Positions 2,649-41,488 of a stretch of DNA of 64,000 nt are shown piece after piece. The stretch lies in assembly GCA_000002445.1 (NCBI GenBank), contig CM000207.1:576001-640000 (forward strand), in the 5' to 3' direction. The notes beneath the pieces are model-generated. The model made no database searches, was not told the origin of the DNA, and saw only the letters and a list, made by a program, of their open reading frames with translations. Source of the DNA: Trypanosoma brucei (lineage: Eukaryota). Made by a program: the position numbers and the translations under genes. The stretch's first letter is position 1. Every line of letters begins with the position of its first letter.

Positions 2649-4469
2649 TCACTTAGTCTTTCTCCTCCGCCACAAAATGAATCCTGTTACCGTCAGAAAT
2701 GCGGCGCTTCCCACGAGCGGAATCAATACCCCATAGATCTGCGCCCTATTAAATCTGTAGCCACCCCAGTTTTGATAATCAGTGGAAATGTCTTTCGCCT
2801 TCCTCCCAGTCGTCCCACCACTCGCAGCATTTCTTCCCTGTCCCTCCTTTTCGGAAGCAGGACCACCCAACGACGATGCTGACATCACCCCGGGTTGCCC
2901 AGAAGCCGCCGCACCACCGCGCTCGGAAGCACCACGTCCAACAGTTGATTCCACCTTAATTCGACTAACCACAGGCAAATCGTACCACAATTTGGGATCA
3001 TTATAAAGAACGAGGGGCTGAGGTTTCTGGTTGACTTCGTGTTGGGAGGTTTGGATAAGGTACGTCGAAGGCGCGGAGTGCAACTCCTTAATAATGATAC
3101 GATAATTTTCAATGGGTTGGAACACAGCGTCAAATGCATCGAACAATGGGGCTAAATTCACACGCCGCCCCATAGCCTGAAGAAAGGACATGTTCTGAAG
3201 CGGCTCCAACTCTTCCACAGAAAGAACAACATCGGTGATGTCCTTTACCACATCGTCTTCGTAAATCGCCTCCACCCGCATGTTGGGCACCTCATCTGGG
3301 CACAAGCTAAGAACTTCATCACGATATTCCTTGCAGTTCACGTAACAAAAAGGAACGGCATAGCGCTTCCACACGGGACCATAACCAAACAAGACTTCAT
3401 CCGCTGATTTCAGCTGCTTCAGTACCTGGGCAAAATCGTAATGAAACTCCATCAGATCACCGGGAGTAAGGTCATGAAAGTGACGCGGACGGTAGTTAGT
3501 TACTAATGGGGCAACTACAAACTGCGCAACCGCCGTATGTGGTTGTCCAACCTTTCCAAAGCGTTGGTCTACTTTAATGTGCGGGAGTGAAGTCTTGCAA
3601 CGCTCGCGAAGAGGTGCCATAAAAGGTGAAACACTATGTAAGAGGGCGTTAGCGAAGGCTTCGAACGCATTTTTCTGAGCGGCCTCCCTCTTCTGTTGCC
3701 CCTTCGTTGGTTTTTTCCACCTCCGGTTACCGTTTGCCGTGAGAGGGGGCAAGGGCCGTCCAAATTCGTCAACATCATCATCACCGACACTTGAAGCCAT
3801 ACCATGCCCCCCTACAATACGGGACGTGCCGTGAACTCGATCGCCGTTGTGCTCCCTACCTTCCAGGTTAGTTAGTACAGTTTGTGCCTTCCCCTTCATT
3901 GCGGAGGCGGCCTTCAGCCACTTACCGCTCTGCAATGGTCTCACTACATCACATCCCGGAAGATCAGGGTACGCAGCAGGGTCAAGGATTGAGGCAGCAC
4001 CAGGTGTCGTCTTAGGAGTCGCACGTAATCCCTTCGGGTTGGAAACAGCATTTTCGGCCTCATGCTCCGCTGCTTCCTGTCTTCCCGGAGTGTCCTGCTC
4101 GCCGTTAAGCTGCCGCTCAAGGAGTTCTCGTGTAAGAGCCATGACGTTGTCAAACTCCTTCTTCCAATCTATTCCCTCAAGCGTAAACTCACCAACTTCC
4201 GTTGCATTCGGTGCTGAAATGCTTTGGCCGGCCAGCATAAACGAAGGGAAGTACGGAGGAGGATCACTAACCATGTCATTCCACTGCAACGTGTCATATT
4301 GTTCCTGCGGGGGTGAACCTGGAACGGTATTCATGCTACCATTCGTCCCTACTCCGCTCTTCTGCTCGAGTCCTTCACCTTCCGCAACGGCAGAATCTGG
4401 AAGGGAAAAAGCTGAAAAATCACCTGTTGGTACCCATTCCTTCGCATTCGCATTCAGCTGGCTAGTCAT
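2649..4469 (-). CDS. Hypothetical protein, 606 aa, with a C-terminal tail-anchor TM helix
   Basis: Long minus-strand ORF in the coding-strand context. The C-terminus reads YGVLIPLVGSAAFLTVTGFILWRRRKTK (hydrophobic helix followed by a basic stop-transfer). The central region is acidic and proline-rich. I recognise no family. Confidence 0.55.
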   Translation of the reverse strand: MTSQLNANAKEWVPTGDFSAFSLPDSAVAEGEGLEQKSGVGTNGSMNTVPGSPPQEQYDTLQWNDMVSDPPPYFPSFMLAGQSISAPNATEVGEFTLEGIDWKKEFDNVMALTRELLERQLNGEQDTPGRQEAAEHEAENAVSNPKGLRATPKTTPGAASILDPAAYPDLPGCDVVRPLQSGKWLKAASAMKGKAQTVLTNLEGREHNGDRVHGTSRIVGGHGMASSVGDDDVDEFGRPLPPLTANGNRRWKKPTKGQQKREAAQKNAFEAFANALLHSVSPFMAPLRERCKTSLPHIKVDQRFGKVGQPHTAVAQFVVAPLVTNYRPRHFHDLTPGDLMEFHYDFAQVLKQLKSADEVLFGYGPVWKRYAVPFCYVNCKEYRDEVLSLCPDEVPNMRVEAIYEDDVVKDITDVVLSVEELEPLQNMSFLQAMGRRVNLAPLFDAFDAVFQPIENYRIIIKELHSAPSTYLIQTSQHEVNQKPQPLVLYNDPKLWYDLPVVSRIKVESTVGRGASERGGAAASGQPGVMSASSLGGPASEKEGQGRNAASGGTTGRKAKDISTDYQNWGGYRFNRAQIYGVLIPLVGSAAFLTVTGFILWRRRKTK

Positions 4470-5008
4470 CTTATTCTTTTTTCCTACCCCTAACTCGCCA
4501 CGTATGTTCTCCTTTATGGGGGATTATCCTTCCTACTAAAGTGGTTAATATGTGCGATGGTGAACACGATTGGGGGTACACGTAAATAAATATATATGTA
4601 TATTTGGTCATATTTACAGAGGGGAAATGAAGAGGGGAAACAAATAATACACCTGACAGGAAACCGCAACATCACTTACTTCGTGTTGGTGATGACGCCG
4701 GCCCACACTCACCCCCTCCCTTCTCCCACAGTCAAAAGGGGCTTAACAAAAAAAAATCCGCGCAATAAAACTCCAACGGAGATTCGAAGAACAGGCGGCA
4801 AAGCAAAGGAGAATAGTTACGCGTATATGCGTACTTCAATGTCGGGTTTAGGAACTTCCCCCTTGGTAGAGATAACGACACGTATAGAAAATAATGCGCG
4901 ATCCTCATTTCCCCCCCCCCAGTCCCTTATGTTAAGAGGAGTCCAACACCATGCGCGTCGATATGAACGGTCCGGTTGCGGACTCATCAATACTCCATAG
5001 ATCCGTCC

Positions 5009-6118
5009 CTACTCGGGGGAGAAAAAGCTCTCTAGGAACTTAGACAAGTATTTGTTGTATTCCATAACGTGTGGAAGGTCACGATGCCAACACTCCTTGA
5101 AACTCAGCAATAGTTGATGATGGAGAGCGAAGTAGCCAACCTCGAAATCGCTCGTCTCCTCCCCCTCCGAGCAGTCGACGGAATTTTGAGAGAGTGCACC
5201 GATTGATTGAGTCCCCACTTCCGACATCGCAGCAGCACTACGCAAACTACCGGTAAGAATTCCGGGTTTATGACCACGCGAAATTGTGTCATAAAGCACC
5301 TCTAGTTGTGGAAGAAACACCTTGTAGTCCCGTTGAAGGAGTAATTGGGCTGTAAACTGAATGGAGACAACAGCGAGAAGGTACCAATGATTCTTTTTAT
5401 CGGCTAGCGCACGCTTATTGAATTCCATCATTCCTTTTAGATGGTCATTATATGCCTCAGCAAAGTGCAGAAATTGGCGGAGAGCGAGCACACCACCACC
5501 ACGGAGGTCTGTCACGGGGTCCATGCCCTGAAACCCGAGATCGTTCCACTCGCTACTCCTTCGGGCGAATGCCGACTTTGGTTTCCCCGCCGCCACCCAC
5601 AACCTTTCCAGTAGCGCAATATGCTGTGGGTTTCCGTCGTCGAATGCCGTGGCCCGTTCCGCCTCTAAGCGAGCCGCCTGCTCCTCGCAACGGCATAACT
5701 GTTGCATCATATGACACACATGCTCCTCTGCACCATTTGCACCATCCGCAGGTGGTTGGTCGGCAGTCCCCACCGGGAACGCCTCCTGCAGGCACTCGAA
5801 GAGCTTACGATTAATTCTAATCGCTTTCTCCTCCCCGCCACGGAAGAAGAACACCAACTGCCCAACCGTGGTGATTTCCCCCTTCATTATGTGTTCAGCA
5901 GCCTTCTTCACGGCTAACTCTGGCTGGTTTACAGCAATATTAACACTCTGTAAAACCGGCGTGCGACGACAGACCTTTCGTGTTTGGCAACGGTATACCT
6001 TATATAAGAGGAACAACAAACCCCCTGCTCCAGCTACAAGCGCCGCCATTACGGGTGTCGGGAGACCGAAACACCTGCTATCGCTCCCCACTTCCAGACA
6101 AGACATACTGGAACCCAT
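5009..6118 (-). CDS. ELMO/CED-12 domain-containing protein
   Basis: The translation contains EWNDLGFQGMDPVTDLRGGGVLALRQFLHFAEAY, which matches the ELMO-domain core (W..LGFQ..DP.TDFRG.G). The N-terminus MGSSMSC fits an N-myristoylation/palmitoylation motif and is followed by the hydrophobic stretch VMAALVAGAGGLLFLLYKVY. Confidence 0.75.
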   Translation of the reverse strand: MGSSMSCLEVGSDSRCFGLPTPVMAALVAGAGGLLFLLYKVYRCQTRKVCRRTPVLQSVNIAVNQPELAVKKAAEHIMKGEITTVGQLVFFFRGGEEKAIRINRKLFECLQEAFPVGTADQPPADGANGAEEHVCHMMQQLCRCEEQAARLEAERATAFDDGNPQHIALLERLWVAAGKPKSAFARRSSEWNDLGFQGMDPVTDLRGGGVLALRQFLHFAEAYNDHLKGMMEFNKRALADKKNHWYLLAVVSIQFTAQLLLQRDYKVFLPQLEVLYDTISRGHKPGILTGSLRSAAAMSEVGTQSIGALSQNSVDCSEGEETSDFEVGYFALHHQLLLSFKECWHRDLPHVMEYNKYLSKFLESFFSPE

Positions 6119-7379
6119 AACCTGCTGTTAGTAAATGCGTCTACAAATATATAAAGAAAAGGCGTTGGGCCTCAAATTAAGGCAAAGTTGCCGTATGCGA
6201 CCCTCCTGTCCCAAGTCGTTCGGCACCGCTTATAAGTTTCTACCCCCCCCCCCCTAGATACAAAATAGATGTAGCAGCACAAGGAGTATAGAAAGGGGGA
6301 AAAAACAGAAACGGGAGCAAGTGACTGCGTGTGCGTATGTGACTCACCAGCCTCGGAAAACTAGTAGTACCAAACGACGAGAAAGAGGATGGGAAGCGTA
6401 GCAGAGGGAAAAACAGAAAAAGACAAAAAAAGACACAGGTGGAAAAAGTGTAGTATACATCAACGACCCGGCATAATAGACTGTGACGCTACATCACCAT
6501 ATTTTTTCTTACTCTTTTTTCTTTCTCCCACTAAAAGGTGCATCAACGCACCCATTCCACTTGGCAAGTTTAGTAAATGAAATGAAAGAGGCAGTTACGA
6601 AAATAAAAATAATAAAAATAACAATGTGGTGACTATGGATAATACTTACAAAAGCGACGAACGAACAGGAGGTATTATTTTTTTTTAAAGCGTGAAAAGG
6701 GGGCATTACTAAAACTATGGATACATCGTGGCGCAAAAATGAGCATGGTATAGTTAAATACAGATATATTTATATTAAAATGCACTAAGTAGGAATAAAC
6801 GAACGAAAACAAAGCAACAGAGCAAAGTCCATCCTCCCCAAAGGCAGTCACTGAGAAAAAAGGATGAGAATTACAACAGCAAAAAGAATAATAAAAAAAA
6901 AAAAGCATCACCGCACCTCGGCTGGGATGCCGACAACCCCGAAGGAAGACTATACCAAAGGGTACGAAAAAAAAAGGAGGAACGGGGGAGGAAGGCGCGA
7001 AAGAGAGAAAAGTAAAATAAATTCTGTATTTTTTATGGAAGCATAAATGGAAATAACAATACACAACATGAAATTGAGGAAAGCAGTGAGGGAAAATCGA
7101 AAGGGGAAGGGAAATTGAAATCTGTATCAACCCTCATACACGCAAGATGGTGTGTATGTGTGGGAGATTGAACAATGGTGCCTGTGTAGTTCTATATCCC
7201 CATAGAAATACACTGAGACATTTATGGTTGCGGAATCGTTTCTATCCGTGACCCGCCTTACAGCAACCAACACACATCCGTTTGGTTGGCAACTTTCTTA
7301 ACCAAACGTTCACGCAAACCTCTCAACTACCTATACAAAAAGCATGACGGCGTGTACAACCCACCTCACTGTGCATATC

Positions 7380-37921: not shown

Positions 37922-39538
37922 TCAACGATGTTGGGGAATGAGGTCATAAAGCTGCATTAAGTTGGGGAAGCCATGTTCCCAGAGGGCAGACTGAAACTGG
38001 CGGCTCGTGCGTGTATCGTAGCTGAGCCTTGTTATGATTACCAATAACGAATTGGGGGCACTAAACGACGTCGTGATAGCCTCACGCGGTATGCCCAAAG
38101 AAGAACAGAGGTCTAGCACAACGGCACCCGTCAATCTGCCAAAGTCTTTCTGAATCAAATCACTCCATTCCTCATCAGGGGAAGTCAGACGCAGTCGTGT
38201 GACCCGGGGAACGCACTTGTCCGGCTCAACCTTCATCGGACTGTCAACATGAAGAGAAAACAAATTCATACGTTCTATAAGAGACAGCTGAACCGATGAC
38301 GAAGGCTCATCCGAACAATTTCCGTTATTCTGCGCCGGCTCCACACGTTCGGAGGACATTTGTAATGAAGCCTGATCAGTCGATTGCGGTAATTCTTCCA
38401 CTTGGGTTTGCTTGCAGTTAGACAGTGAATACCTTGACATTCTGTACATCGCCGTGCTCTCAGTTGCACGCAGGATGAGTCGTGTAGTAGCCTCATCGGA
38501 ACTTATCTTCCCGCGGCTTATCTCCTCCTCTACGCTAAGATCACGGCAAACGGCCTCATCAAGTCTCAGCTCCTCTTCAGGTGCTGGTACGTGGCCCTTA
38601 ACCTGTGGAGCCCTGAACAACAGCGAAGCCAATGCGTTTGGAGAACTCAACACAGTCCCGTAACCGCCAGTTCGCTTTACAACACCATCCACCTTCAAGA
38701 GGGTCTTAGTCCCCTCCACTGCAAGTGCTTCCGATGGTGCCGCAAGCTCTAACGGCACATCTGCCATCTGGCCCGTCTCATCTTTTTTCACTTCAACAAT
38801 TACATGAAAGCAGTCGGCGTGGAATTGCACCGTCTGTGGCGTCAGCAACGCAAAAGAATCAAAATCCTTATCCAAGTATGTAACGTACAGCACCTGAAAC
38901 TTAAGAAGTGCAGCCTTATCATGAATTATACCCATGACGTCGTCAAAATTCGCTCCCTCCTCTTCACATGGTGCTGGTACTTTCAACTCGCCCAGTTTGG
39001 CACCGGACTCCGTTGCAAAGCACAAGGTCCAATAGCCGGAGTCGTTGATGCAACAATCAGCCAAACAACGATCGTCTGAGGCTGCCACCGGCTGGCGGAA
39101 TCCGTACTCGACAGCCACTTCGCTGAGTTGTATATTTGGAAGTGCCGACGATGCCTTGCAACCCTTCACTTCAAACGGCATAAGACTCTCAATTGACCTT
39201 GCCGTGTCCATTAGCCCTGGGTTTGGTATGTGTTCCTGATGTGCTCTTAAGCAAACACCATCCGGATATGGCGAGAGCGTCTCCGCAGTTGGTAAAAAAC
39301 GGCCGGGCGTCGTCCCGCTGCGAACCGTCAAGTGGGATCCCGATTCCTTCGGGGGAAGGGTATCCACATAGCGCTCAAAGAAGCCACCACGGGGCGATTT
39401 GTCGATCATAGGAAGGCTTTCAACAAAATTTTCTAAATAACGGTACAAAAAGACGGCCGCACCCAACCGCAAATACACAAAGATGTGTGTAGCTCTATGG
39501 ATGGGTGGGTCCCCGTCAAAAATAAGATATATGAGCAA
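37922..39538 (-). CDS. Hypothetical protein, 538 aa
   Basis: Long minus-strand ORF with balanced, protein-like composition. I recognise no family. Confidence 0.5.
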   Translation of the reverse strand: MLIYLIFDGDPPIHRATHIFVYLRLGAAVFLYRYLENFVESLPMIDKSPRGGFFERYVDTLPPKESGSHLTVRSGTTPGRFLPTAETLSPYPDGVCLRAHQEHIPNPGLMDTARSIESLMPFEVKGCKASSALPNIQLSEVAVEYGFRQPVAASDDRCLADCCINDSGYWTLCFATESGAKLGELKVPAPCEEEGANFDDVMGIIHDKAALLKFQVLYVTYLDKDFDSFALLTPQTVQFHADCFHVIVEVKKDETGQMADVPLELAAPSEALAVEGTKTLLKVDGVVKRTGGYGTVLSSPNALASLLFRAPQVKGHVPAPEEELRLDEAVCRDLSVEEEISRGKISSDEATTRLILRATESTAMYRMSRYSLSNCKQTQVEELPQSTDQASLQMSSERVEPAQNNGNCSDEPSSSVQLSLIERMNLFSLHVDSPMKVEPDKCVPRVTRLRLTSPDEEWSDLIQKDFGRLTGAVVLDLCSSLGIPREAITTSFSAPNSLLVIITRLSYDTRTSRQFQSALWEHGFPNLMQLYDLIPQHR

Positions 39539-39630
39539 TACCCTTTCAGTCGGACACCTTCTAACAAAAAGGTGAAGAAAAATTTAAAAATATACAGACG
39601 CAGATCGAAATAACAAATCAATAAAACAGA

Positions 39631-40610
39631 GAAGGCAACTATATCAGCACGTTTCCCGTTAAATCTGCTATCAGTACACCCCAACAAGAGGGCACCGTGC
39701 CATTACATTCCATTGCACGAAAGTGCTGAAAAAAGGTACACTCAGTTCGCGGGATCATCACGAAGCAGACGAACACATGCTTCTCCGGAGCCACCAGAAG
39801 GCATCATGCGGCACGAAGTGAAGCTCACTGACCTCGGATTGCCCCGTGTTGTGCCTTGAATGCATGGAGGGGAGAGAGTAGGTTCAAATCAAGAAAGCAC
39901 AGAGGGTGAAGAAAGGATTAGATTAAAACTAAGGCAGACACTCCTGGGGAAGGTACAAAATAACGCATCTCGCACAGTGTCGGCACTAGAGCAGCAGCGG
40001 TACGCCATAACTAGCTTCATTTTCTGTGCTGTACAACACTCACACTCTCACACGCCTCAGGAACCCAAGTGGAAGCAGTCATACCCGTTGGGAGCTAATA
40101 GCGCGTTCTCAGTGTACGGAGAAGTTGATATCACTGTAGTGAAGGCAACTATATCAGCACGTTTCCCGTTAAATCTGCTATCAGTACACCCCAACAAGAG
40201 GGCACCGTGCCATTACATTCCATTGCACGAAAGTGCTGAAAAAAGGTACACTCAGTTCGCGGGATCATCACGAAGCAGACCAACACATGCTTCTCCGGAG
40301 CCACCAGAAGGCATCATGCGGCACGAAGTGAAGCTCACTGACCTCGGATTGCCCCGTGTTGTGCCTTGAATGCATGGAGGGGAGAGAGTAGGTTCAAATC
40401 AAGAAAGCACAGAGGGTGAAGAAAGGATTAGATTAAAACTAAGGCAGACACTCCTGGGGAAGGTACAAAATAACGCATCTCGCACAGTGTCGGCACTAGA
40501 GCAGCAGCGGTACGCCATAACTAGCTTCATTTTCTGTGCTGTACAACACTCACACTCTCACACGCCTCAGGAACCCAAGTGGAAGCAGTCATGCCCGTTG
40601 GGAACTAACC
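39631..40610. repeat. Tandem direct duplication: two ~466 bp units with a 510 bp period (39631-40096 and 40141-40606), ~99% identical, in an intergenic region
   Basis: By eye the two copies are identical apart from a few substitutions (gacgaacacatg vs gaccaacacatg; catacccgttgggagctaat vs catgcccgttgggaactaac). The duplication explains the twin plus-strand ORFs 39860..40369 and 40370..40624, which share an N-terminus. Confidence 0.9.
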
Positions 40611-41242
40611 ATATTGTTCTCTAAACCACGAAATATCAAAAAAGGGGGGAAAAGTGATTACCGTGCTTGGGTATCCCTCAATGAATCTTAGCTCAGCAGT
40701 AAACAATGTAAAAGAAATATAATTGTTACTTTACGATTCCATACCTCTTCCTCGGGTGTCAGGGTTAGTAAAGGGACGGACAAAATGCGACACCGTACAT
40801 TCCGTAAGTTTTTATTTTTCAACCGTATCTTCTCTTTTCTTCTCCTCGTTTCCAACTGCTTTCCCTCTATTCTACCTTCCGCGGTCGAGTGGGGCACCGC
40901 ACAAAACAGTGTGGACCATATCCTTCCCTACAGTAGGAAACGGGCATGGCATAGTGGCCCCCTTCACTACAACGCTGGCACAAAAGGAAAAGCATGAGAC
41001 GTTGTCGATCGGGAGGTGAAAACGCCGATAATTATACAGCTTCACATGCAAAATTCAACGCCAAACACCATCTGTCTGGTGTTCAACCACATCAATTAGA
41101 GTGTGCGTGTGGAGGCGCTCACAAAAAATACATTCATGCTTCCCTGGTACATGGAGTTTGGCATCTCACACTCAACAATCAAACCCCACATGCTCATCTT
41201 GTCACTTTCTATCCTCTAAAAGGCAGATGTTTCTTGCATCGC

Positions 41243-41488
41243 TTAGGCAGTTGCGGTTAACCGCGAGCGGTAGTTTCGGAAAGCGCGTTGAATGACTCGG
41301 GCAGACTTTTCATGAGTGGCAGCCGTCGCCTTCGCGCACCGCGCAGTCGCCCATTGTCGTAGGAACTCGTAAACATCATTAGGCTTCTCGCGGACAGCAT
41401 CGGCAACGAAATCCTCAAGGAGGGGGCCTACACCAATGCGCTCGAGATAGTCGCGCTGTCCCTCGCTGTATTCAAGGCCAAAACTCAT
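41243..41488 (-). CDS. Small RIIa (dimerisation/docking) + IQ-motif protein, SPA17/ropporin-like; likely flagellar
   Basis: MSFGLEYSEGQRDYLERIGVGPLLEDFVADAVREKPNDVYEFLRQWA is an RIIa/DPY-30-type docking domain. ARVIQRAFRNYRSRL is an IQ motif. The ORF in the track extends to 41836, but that extension (MCVCFHVLELRTVFFF...) is a translation of a (CA)n/A-run-rich non-coding tract, so I call the start at 41488. Confidence 0.7.
   Translation of the reverse strand: MSFGLEYSEGQRDYLERIGVGPLLEDFVADAVREKPNDVYEFLRQWATARCAKATAATHEKSARVIQRAFRNYRSRLTATA

What the first reader, a model, noticed from the sequence alone, without database searches (positions are those of the whole stretch)
39631..40610. Near-perfect 510-bp-period tandem duplication in an intergenic region: candidate small-RNA (snoRNA) array
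Two ~466 bp units (~99% identical) sit between two protein genes. In trypanosomatids snoRNA genes are typically organised as tandemly reiterated clusters of a few hundred bp inside polycistrons, processed from the pre-mRNA. On the transcribed (minus) strand each unit contains a C-box-like GUGAUGA (plus-strand gatcatcac near 39755 and 40265) followed shortly by CUGA. That is suggestive but not proof. The alternative is a recent segmental duplication of a UTR, or a regulatory element in two copies.
Basis: partly seen in the sequence, partly recalled or inferred. Interest (0 to 1): 0.6.

Follow-up and report, generated by a model that had tools for sequence, protein, structure and literature searches.

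The report
Known trypanosome snoRNA gene cluster, duplicated

Summary
The repeat is real. There are two head-to-tail copies with a 510-bp period (40099-40608 and 39628-40098), differing at 4 of 471 positions.

All RNA genes lie on the minus strand, the same strand as every conserved gene in the window. Rfam finds three trypanosomatid H/ACA-like (AGA-box, single-hairpin) snoRNAs in each copy, all above the curated thresholds: TB9Cs1H3, TB9Cs1H1 and TB9Cs1H2.

This is a box C/D snoRNA (39663-39770 and 40173-40280). Its C box, D box and a 15-nt block are invariant in five Trypanosoma species. It is most likely TB9Cs1C1.

Six proteins from the window match T. brucei brucei TREU927 chromosome 9 entries exactly, so this is the named locus itself.

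Unit copy number differs between Trypanozoon assemblies (1, 2, 3 and 4). T. vivax carries a two-copy array at the same syntenic position. The tandem array is therefore real and old, although the count in any one assembly is uncertain.

Two plus-strand ORFs across the repeat, annotated "hypothetical protein, unlikely", are antisense artefacts.

The parts
40099..40608 (-). Repeat unit 1 (5'-most on the transcribed strand): one full 510-nt period.
39628..40098 (-). Repeat unit 2: 471 nt, 99.15% identical to unit 1. The array ends here.
40556..40619 (-). TB9Cs1H3, edge copy. Its 5' ~15 nt lie outside the homogenised block and have diverged, which weakens the lower stem. Probably impaired or a pseudogene.
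   Evidence: Rfam RF01553 scores 35.5 bits (gathering 35) with two non-canonical pairs. Minimum free energy is -13.3 against -20 kcal/mol for the intact copy.
40478..40540 (-). TB9Cs1H1 H/ACA-like snoRNA, copy 1: single hairpin with a 3' AGA box.
   Evidence: Rfam RF01861, 82.1 bits (gathering 55), full length.
40359..40477 (-). Pyrimidine-rich spacer between H1 and H2, copy 1.
   Evidence: No Rfam hit at E<=10. The identical copy-2 spacer has no stable fold (z +0.22). Not conserved in T. vivax, and shorter there.
40289..40358 (-). TB9Cs1H2 H/ACA-like snoRNA, copy 1.
   Evidence: Rfam RF01552, 65.5 bits (gathering 35).
40173..40280 (-). Box C/D snoRNA, copy 1 (most likely TB9Cs1C1). C box GUGAUGA at 40271-40265, D box CUGA at 40184-40181.
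   Evidence: Identical to copy 2. Boxes located.
40046..40111 (-). TB9Cs1H3 H/ACA-like snoRNA, intact copy. It straddles the unit junction.
   Evidence: Rfam RF01553, 73.5 bits (gathering 35). Hairpin of -20 kcal/mol.
39968..40030 (-). TB9Cs1H1 H/ACA-like snoRNA, copy 2.
   Evidence: Rfam RF01861, 82.1 bits.
39849..39967 (-). Pyrimidine-rich spacer between H1 and H2, copy 2.
39779..39848 (-). TB9Cs1H2 H/ACA-like snoRNA, copy 2.
   Evidence: Rfam RF01552, 65.5 bits.
39663..39770 (-). Box C/D snoRNA, copy 2 (most likely TB9Cs1C1). C box at 39761-39755. Conserved block UGAGUGUACCUUUUU at 39744-39730. D box CUGA at 39674-39671. A 7-bp terminal stem pairs GUCUGCU with AGCAGAU. Mature ends are not known.
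   Evidence: Fold z -2.0 with the terminal stem. Boxes and the 15-nt block are invariant in 5 species. Segment is invariant in all 10 Trypanozoon units.
39860..40369 (+). Antisense ORF of 169 aa. Its length, including the stop, equals the 510-nt period. Annotated 'hypothetical protein, unlikely' in TREU927. An artefact, not a gene.
   Evidence: Exact match to EAN76392.1. No Pfam family. No similarity to the T. vivax antisense ORF, E 0.098.
40370..40624 (+). Second antisense ORF (84 aa), the truncated continuation of the first. Also annotated 'hypothetical protein, unlikely'.
   Evidence: Exact match to EAN76393.1.
41243..41488 (-). Upstream flanking gene: an 81-aa protein with weak RIIa and IQ motif matches.
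37922..39409 (-). Downstream flanking gene: a 495-aa protein with a weak FAZ1_cons match.

Best explanation
This is the TB9Cs1 snoRNA gene cluster of Trypanosoma brucei brucei TREU927 chromosome 9, present as a 1.92-copy tandem array. On the minus strand each unit encodes, in order, the H/ACA-like snoRNAs TB9Cs1H3, TB9Cs1H1 and TB9Cs1H2, then one box C/D snoRNA, most likely TB9Cs1C1.

Shown here: the sequences, the family matches, the strand, the synteny, and the variation in copy number.

Taken from the literature: the three H/ACA-like RNAs are expressed in both life stages. They are assigned to pseudouridines in SSU rRNA (H1, H2), in LSU-5' (H3) and in LSU-3' (H1); U2-Psi14 is also listed for H1 in the table's scaRNA-target column. 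TB9Cs1C1 is assigned to 2'-O-methylation of LSU-beta G71 and U73.

Inferred from general trypanosomatid biology: the array is transcribed by RNA polymerase II as part of the minus-strand polycistronic unit. The individual RNAs are then cut and trimmed out of the precursor and assembled into CBF5-type and NOP1 (fibrillarin)-type particles. Tandem reiteration sets gene dosage, and the array changes size by unequal crossing-over, which also keeps the units nearly identical.
For: Rfam gathering-level matches for H3, H1 and H2 occur in both units, all on the minus strand. Six window proteins, including the two antisense ORFs, are exact matches to TREU927 entries EAN76388-EAN76397 on a 3,057,547-bp record. 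The 81-aa sequence is listed only for TREU927 among the members of its cluster. Sixteen of the 18 ORFs of at least 250 aa are on the minus strand, and the two plus-strand ones overlap longer minus-strand ORFs. The same snoRNAs lie at the syntenic position in T. vivax (two identical ~460-bp units), T. theileri, T. cruzi and T. rangeli. Between T. brucei and T. vivax, the conserved blocks coincide with boxes, pockets and the guide, while spacers diverge with indels. The H1 lower stem covaries: CACAG/CUGUG against CGAGG/CCUCG. The C/D gene has invariant GUGAUGA, UGAGUGU(A/G)CCUUUUU and CUGA in five species. Unit counts are 1, 2, 3 and 4 in four Trypanozoon assemblies, always (N-1) x 510 + 471 nt. 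Literature support: expression values and targets of TB9Cs1H1, H2 and H3 (PMC4855143 Table S1); TB9Cs1C1 assigned to LSUb_71 (G) and LSUb_73 (U), both reduced on NOP1 silencing (PMC9283944 Table 2).
Against: No small-RNA reads could be examined here. No trypanosome rRNA sequence was available, so no guide-target pairing was tested with a tool. The conserved 15-nt block of the C/D RNA is not followed by a recognisable D' box. The edge copy of H3 barely passes its threshold and may not work. One paper states that TB9Cs1 lies opposite to two hypothetical protein genes (PMC3273796). That is explained here by the two 'unlikely' antisense ORFs.
Confidence: 0.95

Rival explanations
1. The duplication is an assembly artefact: a single-copy snoRNA cluster wrongly doubled, or a longer array collapsed to two.
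For: The T. equiperdum OVI assembly carries only one 471-nt unit at this locus. Near-identical tandem repeats are often mis-counted in assemblies.
Against: Independent assemblies carry 3 units (T. b. gambiense DAL972) and 4 units (T. b. equiperdum, GCA_003543875.1), with unit-specific substitutions. T. vivax has two units at the syntenic site. The only intact H3 gene straddles a unit junction, so a one-unit locus would lack it. Tandem organisation is therefore real; only the exact count in any one assembly is uncertain.
Confidence: 0.1
2. The repeat encodes proteins on the plus strand: the annotated 169-aa and 84-aa ORFs.
For: Both ORFs exist and are deposited as proteins in TREU927. Two 169-aa versions are deposited for DAL972.
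Against: The depositors themselves label them 'unlikely'. The 169-aa ORF is exactly one repeat period long, as expected for a frame that happens to stay open through a unit whose length is a multiple of three. It has no Pfam family. It shows no significant similarity to antisense ORFs of the T. vivax array, best E 0.098. It lies antisense to the polycistronic unit.
Confidence: 0.01
3. A recent duplication of untranslated or regulatory sequence with no RNA-gene function.
For: It lies between two protein genes and contains pyrimidine-rich tracts like those used for trans-splicing.
Against: There are six Rfam matches above curated thresholds. The same four RNA genes are conserved at the syntenic site across Trypanosoma while the spacers are not. 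Expression data for these RNAs are published.
Confidence: 0.01

Closest known systems
TB9Cs1 snoRNA cluster of T. brucei (named in Liang et al. 2005 according to PMC4855143 Table S1; Rfam RF01861 TB9Cs1H1, RF01552 TB9Cs1H2, RF01553 TB9Cs1H3)
   Same: Same organism and chromosome by exact protein matches. The same three H/ACA-like RNAs at full model length. It has the antisense relation to two hypothetical ORFs that PMC3273796 describes for TB9Cs1.
   Different: Nothing of substance: this is the locus itself. Small additions from this work are the array size in four assemblies, the degraded edge copy of H3, and the identity of the two 'hypothetical proteins' as artefact ORFs.
Box C/D methylation-guide snoRNAs (here TB9Cs1C1, assigned to LSU-beta Gm71/Um73 in PMC9283944)
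   Same: C box GUGAUGA, D box CUGA, a terminal stem, an internal hairpin before a C'-like box, and one conserved antisense-like block.
   Different: No Rfam family matches it. The conserved block is not followed by a canonical D' box. The sequence upstream of the D box is not conserved between salivarian and stercorarian species, and in my manual reading of it (no fold was run) it looks self-complementary. The target pairing is unverified.
Tandemly reiterated snoRNA clusters of other trypanosomatids
   Same: Mixed C/D and H/ACA-like genes in a unit of a few hundred bp, repeated head to tail inside a polycistronic unit. This is seen here in T. vivax and T. theileri too.
   Different: Unit composition differs by species. 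T. theileri has H1-H2 pairs at a 284-bp period and a GP63 gene inside one unit.

Membership tests
Trypanosomatid H/ACA-like snoRNAs TB9Cs1H1, H2, H3 (Rfam RF01861, RF01552, RF01553) | Covariance-model score at or above the curated gathering score, over the full model. | tested here: met
   H1 82.1 bits (gathering 55) twice. H2 65.5 (gathering 35) twice. H3 73.5 and 35.5 (gathering 35). All match from the first to the last model position.
Trypanosomatid H/ACA-like snoRNAs TB9Cs1H1, H2, H3 | A single hairpin with an internal pseudouridylation pocket, followed by a 3' AGA box. | tested here: met
   The Rfam structure lines show lower stem, pocket and upper stem, and each RNA has an AGA box at or a few nucleotides from its 3' end (H2 ends GGAGAAGC). 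The intact H3 and H1 fold into that hairpin as the minimum-energy structure; H2 does not on its own.
Trypanosomatid H/ACA-like snoRNAs TB9Cs1H1, H2, H3 | Two-part complementarity of the pocket to rRNA flanking a target uridine. | not testable with these tools
   No trypanosome rRNA sequence was available. From my own recall of conserved rRNA (not a tool result): the H1 3' pocket GCCGACA is complementary to the universal LSU sequence UGUCGGC-UC, and the H2 pocket strands UCUGGUG / AAUCCG fit the SSU sequence ACCAGA-UC-CGGA. The literature assigns H1 to SSU and LSU-3', H2 to SSU and H3 to LSU-5'.
Trypanosomatid H/ACA-like snoRNAs TB9Cs1H1, H2, H3 | Expressed as stable small RNAs. | not testable with these tools
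   Published read counts for TB9Cs1H1, H2 and H3 in procyclic and bloodstream forms (PMC4855143 Table S1).
Box C/D snoRNA (TB9Cs1C1) | C box RUGAUGA near the 5' end and D box CUGA near the 3' end, conserved in orthologues. | tested here: met
   GUGAUGA and CUGA are invariant in T. brucei, T. vivax, T. cruzi, T. theileri and T. rangeli.
Box C/D snoRNA (TB9Cs1C1) | A terminal stem that brings the C and D boxes together. | tested here: inconclusive
   There is a 7-bp stem in T. brucei and a possible 6-bp stem in T. theileri by eye. No convincing stem in T. cruzi or T. rangeli.
Box C/D snoRNA (TB9Cs1C1) | An antisense element of 10 nt or more, complementary to rRNA and ending next to a D or D' box. 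| tested here: inconclusive
   A conserved 15-nt block exists, but no canonical D' box follows it. The predicted target AAAAAGGUACACUCAGUU contains G-G-U, which would fit the reported Gm71/Um73 lying two positions apart. The only test I could run found 9 metagenome matches, none in rRNA.
Box C/D snoRNA (TB9Cs1C1) | Sequence identity with the published TB9Cs1C1. | not testable with these tools
   The original description could not be opened, and no held text gives the sequence.
Protein-coding gene on the plus strand | Conservation of the protein or a recognisable domain. | tested here: not met
   No Pfam family. No similarity to T. vivax antisense ORFs. Labelled 'unlikely' by the annotators.

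The most novel reading that the evidence does not exclude
Array size at this locus varies between Trypanozoon lineages (1 to 4 units). Only junction-spanning copies of TB9Cs1H3 are intact. A real one-unit allele, as in the T. equiperdum OVI assembly, would therefore carry only the degraded H3 and could lack or reduce one LSU pseudouridine. That would be a natural loss-of-guide variant, and more generally a dosage polymorphism for four modification guides.
Probability: 0.1. Interest if true: 0.3.

Novelty: already known. Interest (0 to 1): 0.08.

Why it matters
It matters little beyond housekeeping. It confirms that a reader working from sequence alone can spot a trypanosomatid snoRNA array. 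It shows that two deposited 'hypothetical proteins' (EAN76392, EAN76393) are antisense artefacts of the repeat. It also explains a published remark that this cluster runs opposite to its neighbours: it runs with the real neighbours. The variation in copy number and the degraded edge copy of H3 are minor points that might interest people who study rRNA modification dosage in trypanosomes.

Tried and rejected
- Rfam at E<=10 on 39300-41000 gave no family for the C/D gene or the H1-H2 spacer. The only extra hits were meaningless EBV sisRNA matches at E 5.6.
- The H1-H2 spacer was considered as a fifth RNA gene and rejected. It has no fold signal (z +0.22), no boxes, and is not conserved in T. vivax.
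- The CUGA 9 nt after the C box was considered as a D' box with a 9-10-nt guide. This was rejected as the main guide because that stretch differs in every species.
- The second CUGA at 39647 was considered as the D box. This was rejected because it lies outside the terminal stem and is not conserved.
- A metagenome scan for the predicted C/D target gave only chance matches.
- A text search for the guide or target sequence in papers found nothing relevant.
- The original 2005 description could not be opened by DOI or by a guessed PMC id.
- The T. congolense orthologue of the 495-aa protein had no contig on record.
- The primer for the nearby solitary snoRNA TB9Cs1''H1 does not match the window.
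- There are no tRNAs in the window.

Full report
**Observation.** The tandem duplication is real. Shifting the sequence by 510 bases gives a continuous run of identity from 39631 to 40098, with 3 mismatches and chance-level identity on both sides. The repeat finder reports the same pair. BLAST of one period against the window finds 40608-40099 and 40098-39628 (471 nt, 99.15%) and nothing else in 64 kb. TRF is silent only because its longest period is 500. The array is thus one full 510-nt period plus a 471-nt partial one.

**What it is.** A scan of the whole window against Rfam at the curated thresholds returns six matches, all inside the repeat and all on the minus strand.
- TB9Cs1H3: 40111-40046 (73.5 bits) and 40619-40556 (35.5 bits; gathering score 35).
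- TB9Cs1H1: 40030-39968 and 40540-40478 (82.1 bits; gathering score 55).
- TB9Cs1H2: 39848-39779 and 40358-40289 (65.5 bits; gathering score 35).

These are the single-hairpin, AGA-box H/ACA-like snoRNAs typical of trypanosomatids. The alignments show the lower stem, pocket, upper stem and an AGA box at or near the 3' end. A permissive scan of 39300-41000 adds nothing meaningful.

**The fourth gene.** The stretch 39770-39663 reads GUCUGCU-UCG-UGAUGA ... CUGA-U-AGCAGAU. It folds with a 7-bp terminal stem that brings the two boxes together, at z -2.0 against shuffles. I fetched the syntenic loci of T. vivax, T. cruzi, T. theileri and T. rangeli. In each, a homologous sequence follows H2. In the five-species alignment three elements are invariant: GUGAUGA, the block UGAGUGU(A/G)CCUUUUU, and the D-box CUGA. 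A short hairpin after the block changes sequence but keeps its pairing (GCAC/GUGC, GCCG/CGGC, GCGC/GCGC). The 9-10 nt between the C box and the first CUGA differ in every species.

This is the conservation pattern of a box C/D guide RNA with one functional antisense element. The literature lists a C/D member of this cluster, TB9Cs1C1. It is assigned to 2'-O-methyl G71 and U73 of LSU-beta, and both fall when NOP1 is silenced (PMC9283944 Table 2). This is the only C/D candidate in the unit, so I equate the two, but I could not see the published sequence.

The complement of the conserved block, AAAAAGGUACACUCAGUU, contains G-G-U. That would fit two methylated residues two positions apart. This is an inference. 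I had no trypanosome rRNA, and an exact-match scan of metagenome contigs gave nine hits, none in rRNA. No canonical D' box follows the block.

**Organism and locus.** Six proteins translated from the window are exact matches to T. brucei brucei TREU927 entries EAN76388 to EAN76397, on a 3,057,547-bp record. They are the 81-aa and NuA4 proteins, the cytidine deaminase, and three small plus-strand ORFs. Among the members listed for its cluster, the exact 81-aa sequence is held only by TREU927. The window is therefore TREU927 chromosome 9, or something indistinguishable from it, and the repeat is the locus after which the Rfam families are named.

**Strand and context.** Sixteen of the 18 ORFs of at least 250 aa are on the minus strand, and the two plus-strand ones overlap longer minus-strand ORFs. 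The flanking genes are conserved in other trypanosomes and also lie on the minus strand: the 81-aa RIIa/IQ protein, the 495-aa protein with a weak FAZ1_cons match, NuA4/Eaf6 and cytidine deaminase. The snoRNAs are thus co-directional with their polycistronic unit.

One paper says TB9Cs1 lies opposite to two hypothetical protein genes (PMC3273796). Those are evidently the plus-strand ORFs 39860-40369 (169 aa) and 40370-40624 (84 aa), deposited as 'hypothetical protein, unlikely'. The first is exactly one repeat period long. It has no Pfam family and no similarity to antisense ORFs of the T. vivax array. They are artefacts of an open antisense frame in a unit whose length is a multiple of three.

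**Array dynamics.** The distance between the flanking genes and BLAST with one unit give the following unit counts.

| Assembly | Units |
|---|---|
| T. equiperdum OVI | 1 |
| This window (TREU927) | 2 |
| T. b. gambiense DAL972 | 3 |
| T. b. equiperdum GCA_003543875.1 | 4 |

In every case the array is (N-1) x 510 + 471 nt. Rfam finds the matching numbers of H1, H2 and H3. Across the ten units there are 16 variable columns: 9 in spacers, 7 in the H/ACA genes and none in the C/D gene.

In every assembly the 5'-most H3 is the weak one. Its first ~15 nt lie outside the homogenised block, two lower-stem pairs are lost, and its minimum free energy is -13.3 against -20 kcal/mol. One edge-specific base is shared by the first unit of all four arrays. 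Because intact H3 copies straddle unit junctions, a one-unit locus has only the weak H3. This makes me suspect that the OVI assembly is collapsed, but I cannot show it.

T. vivax has two 100%-identical units of about 460 bp at the same syntenic site, in the same gene order. Its edge H3 is also degraded and has lost the AGA box. Between the two species, conserved blocks coincide with pockets, boxes and the guide. The spacers are unalignable. The H1 lower stem covaries. All this is the usual picture of an old tandem array kept homogeneous within species by unequal exchange.

**How it works.**
- Shown here: gene content, strand, conservation and copy-number variation.
- From the literature: TB9Cs1H1, H2 and H3 are expressed in procyclic and bloodstream forms. 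They are assigned to pseudouridines in SSU (H1 twice, H2), LSU-5' (H3) and LSU-3' (H1); the table's scaRNA-target column also lists U2-Psi14 for H1 (PMC4855143 Table S1).
- From my own recall of conserved rRNA, not a tool result: the H1 3' pocket strand GCCGACA complements the universal LSU sequence UGUCGGC-UC. The H2 pocket strands fit the SSU sequence ACCAGA-UC-CGGA.
- Inferred from general trypanosomatid biology: the array is transcribed with the polycistron, the RNAs are released by nuclease processing, and they assemble into CBF5-type and NOP1-type particles.

**Verdict.** The feature is already known, and interest is low. The small new points are:
- the 1-4 unit variation between assemblies;
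- the conserved degraded edge copy of H3;
- the artefactual nature of two deposited ORFs;
- the absence of a canonical D' box next to the conserved block of the C/D RNA.

Noticed in passing
L007 (T. theileri) 3089-7150; L006 (T. cruzi) 1-2400: In T. theileri a GP63 (Peptidase_M8) gene at 4596-6296 sits inside a snoRNA unit. It lies between H1 (4276-4338) and H2 (6910-6980), with the C/D orthologue after H2. T. cruzi likewise has GP63 just upstream of H2 and the C/D gene, while T. rangeli has H1 and H2 adjacent. T. theileri also has extra H1-H2 pairs at a 284-bp period without the C/D gene, ending in an assembly gap.
   Followed up: partly
window 39860-40369 and 40370-40624 (+); window 40785-40997 (+): Three small plus-strand ORFs between the flanking genes are deposited as proteins in TREU927 (EAN76392, EAN76393, EAN76394), all labelled 'hypothetical protein, unlikely'. 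The third is also named 'Secreted protein' in UniRef and is annotated in T. equiperdum. The first two are antisense to the snoRNA array.
   Followed up: partly
window 39730-39744 (-) and 40240-40254 (-): The conserved 15-nt block of the C/D snoRNA starts inside the CUGA that looks like a D' box and is followed by UUCA/UCGA-like sequence rather than a canonical D' box. How the methylated position is measured in this RNA is unclear.
   Followed up: partly
L001 (T. equiperdum OVI) 5301-5782: This assembly has a single unit and therefore only the degraded H3 copy (35.5 bits). Either the repeat was collapsed during assembly or this strain lacks an intact TB9Cs1H3.
   Followed up: no
window 37922-39409 (-): The 495-aa downstream neighbour has a weak FAZ1_cons match (22.9 bits, below the cut-off of 27.5). 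The same family is recorded for the T. congolense and T. theileri orthologues, so the gene may be a flagellum attachment zone-related protein.
   Followed up: no
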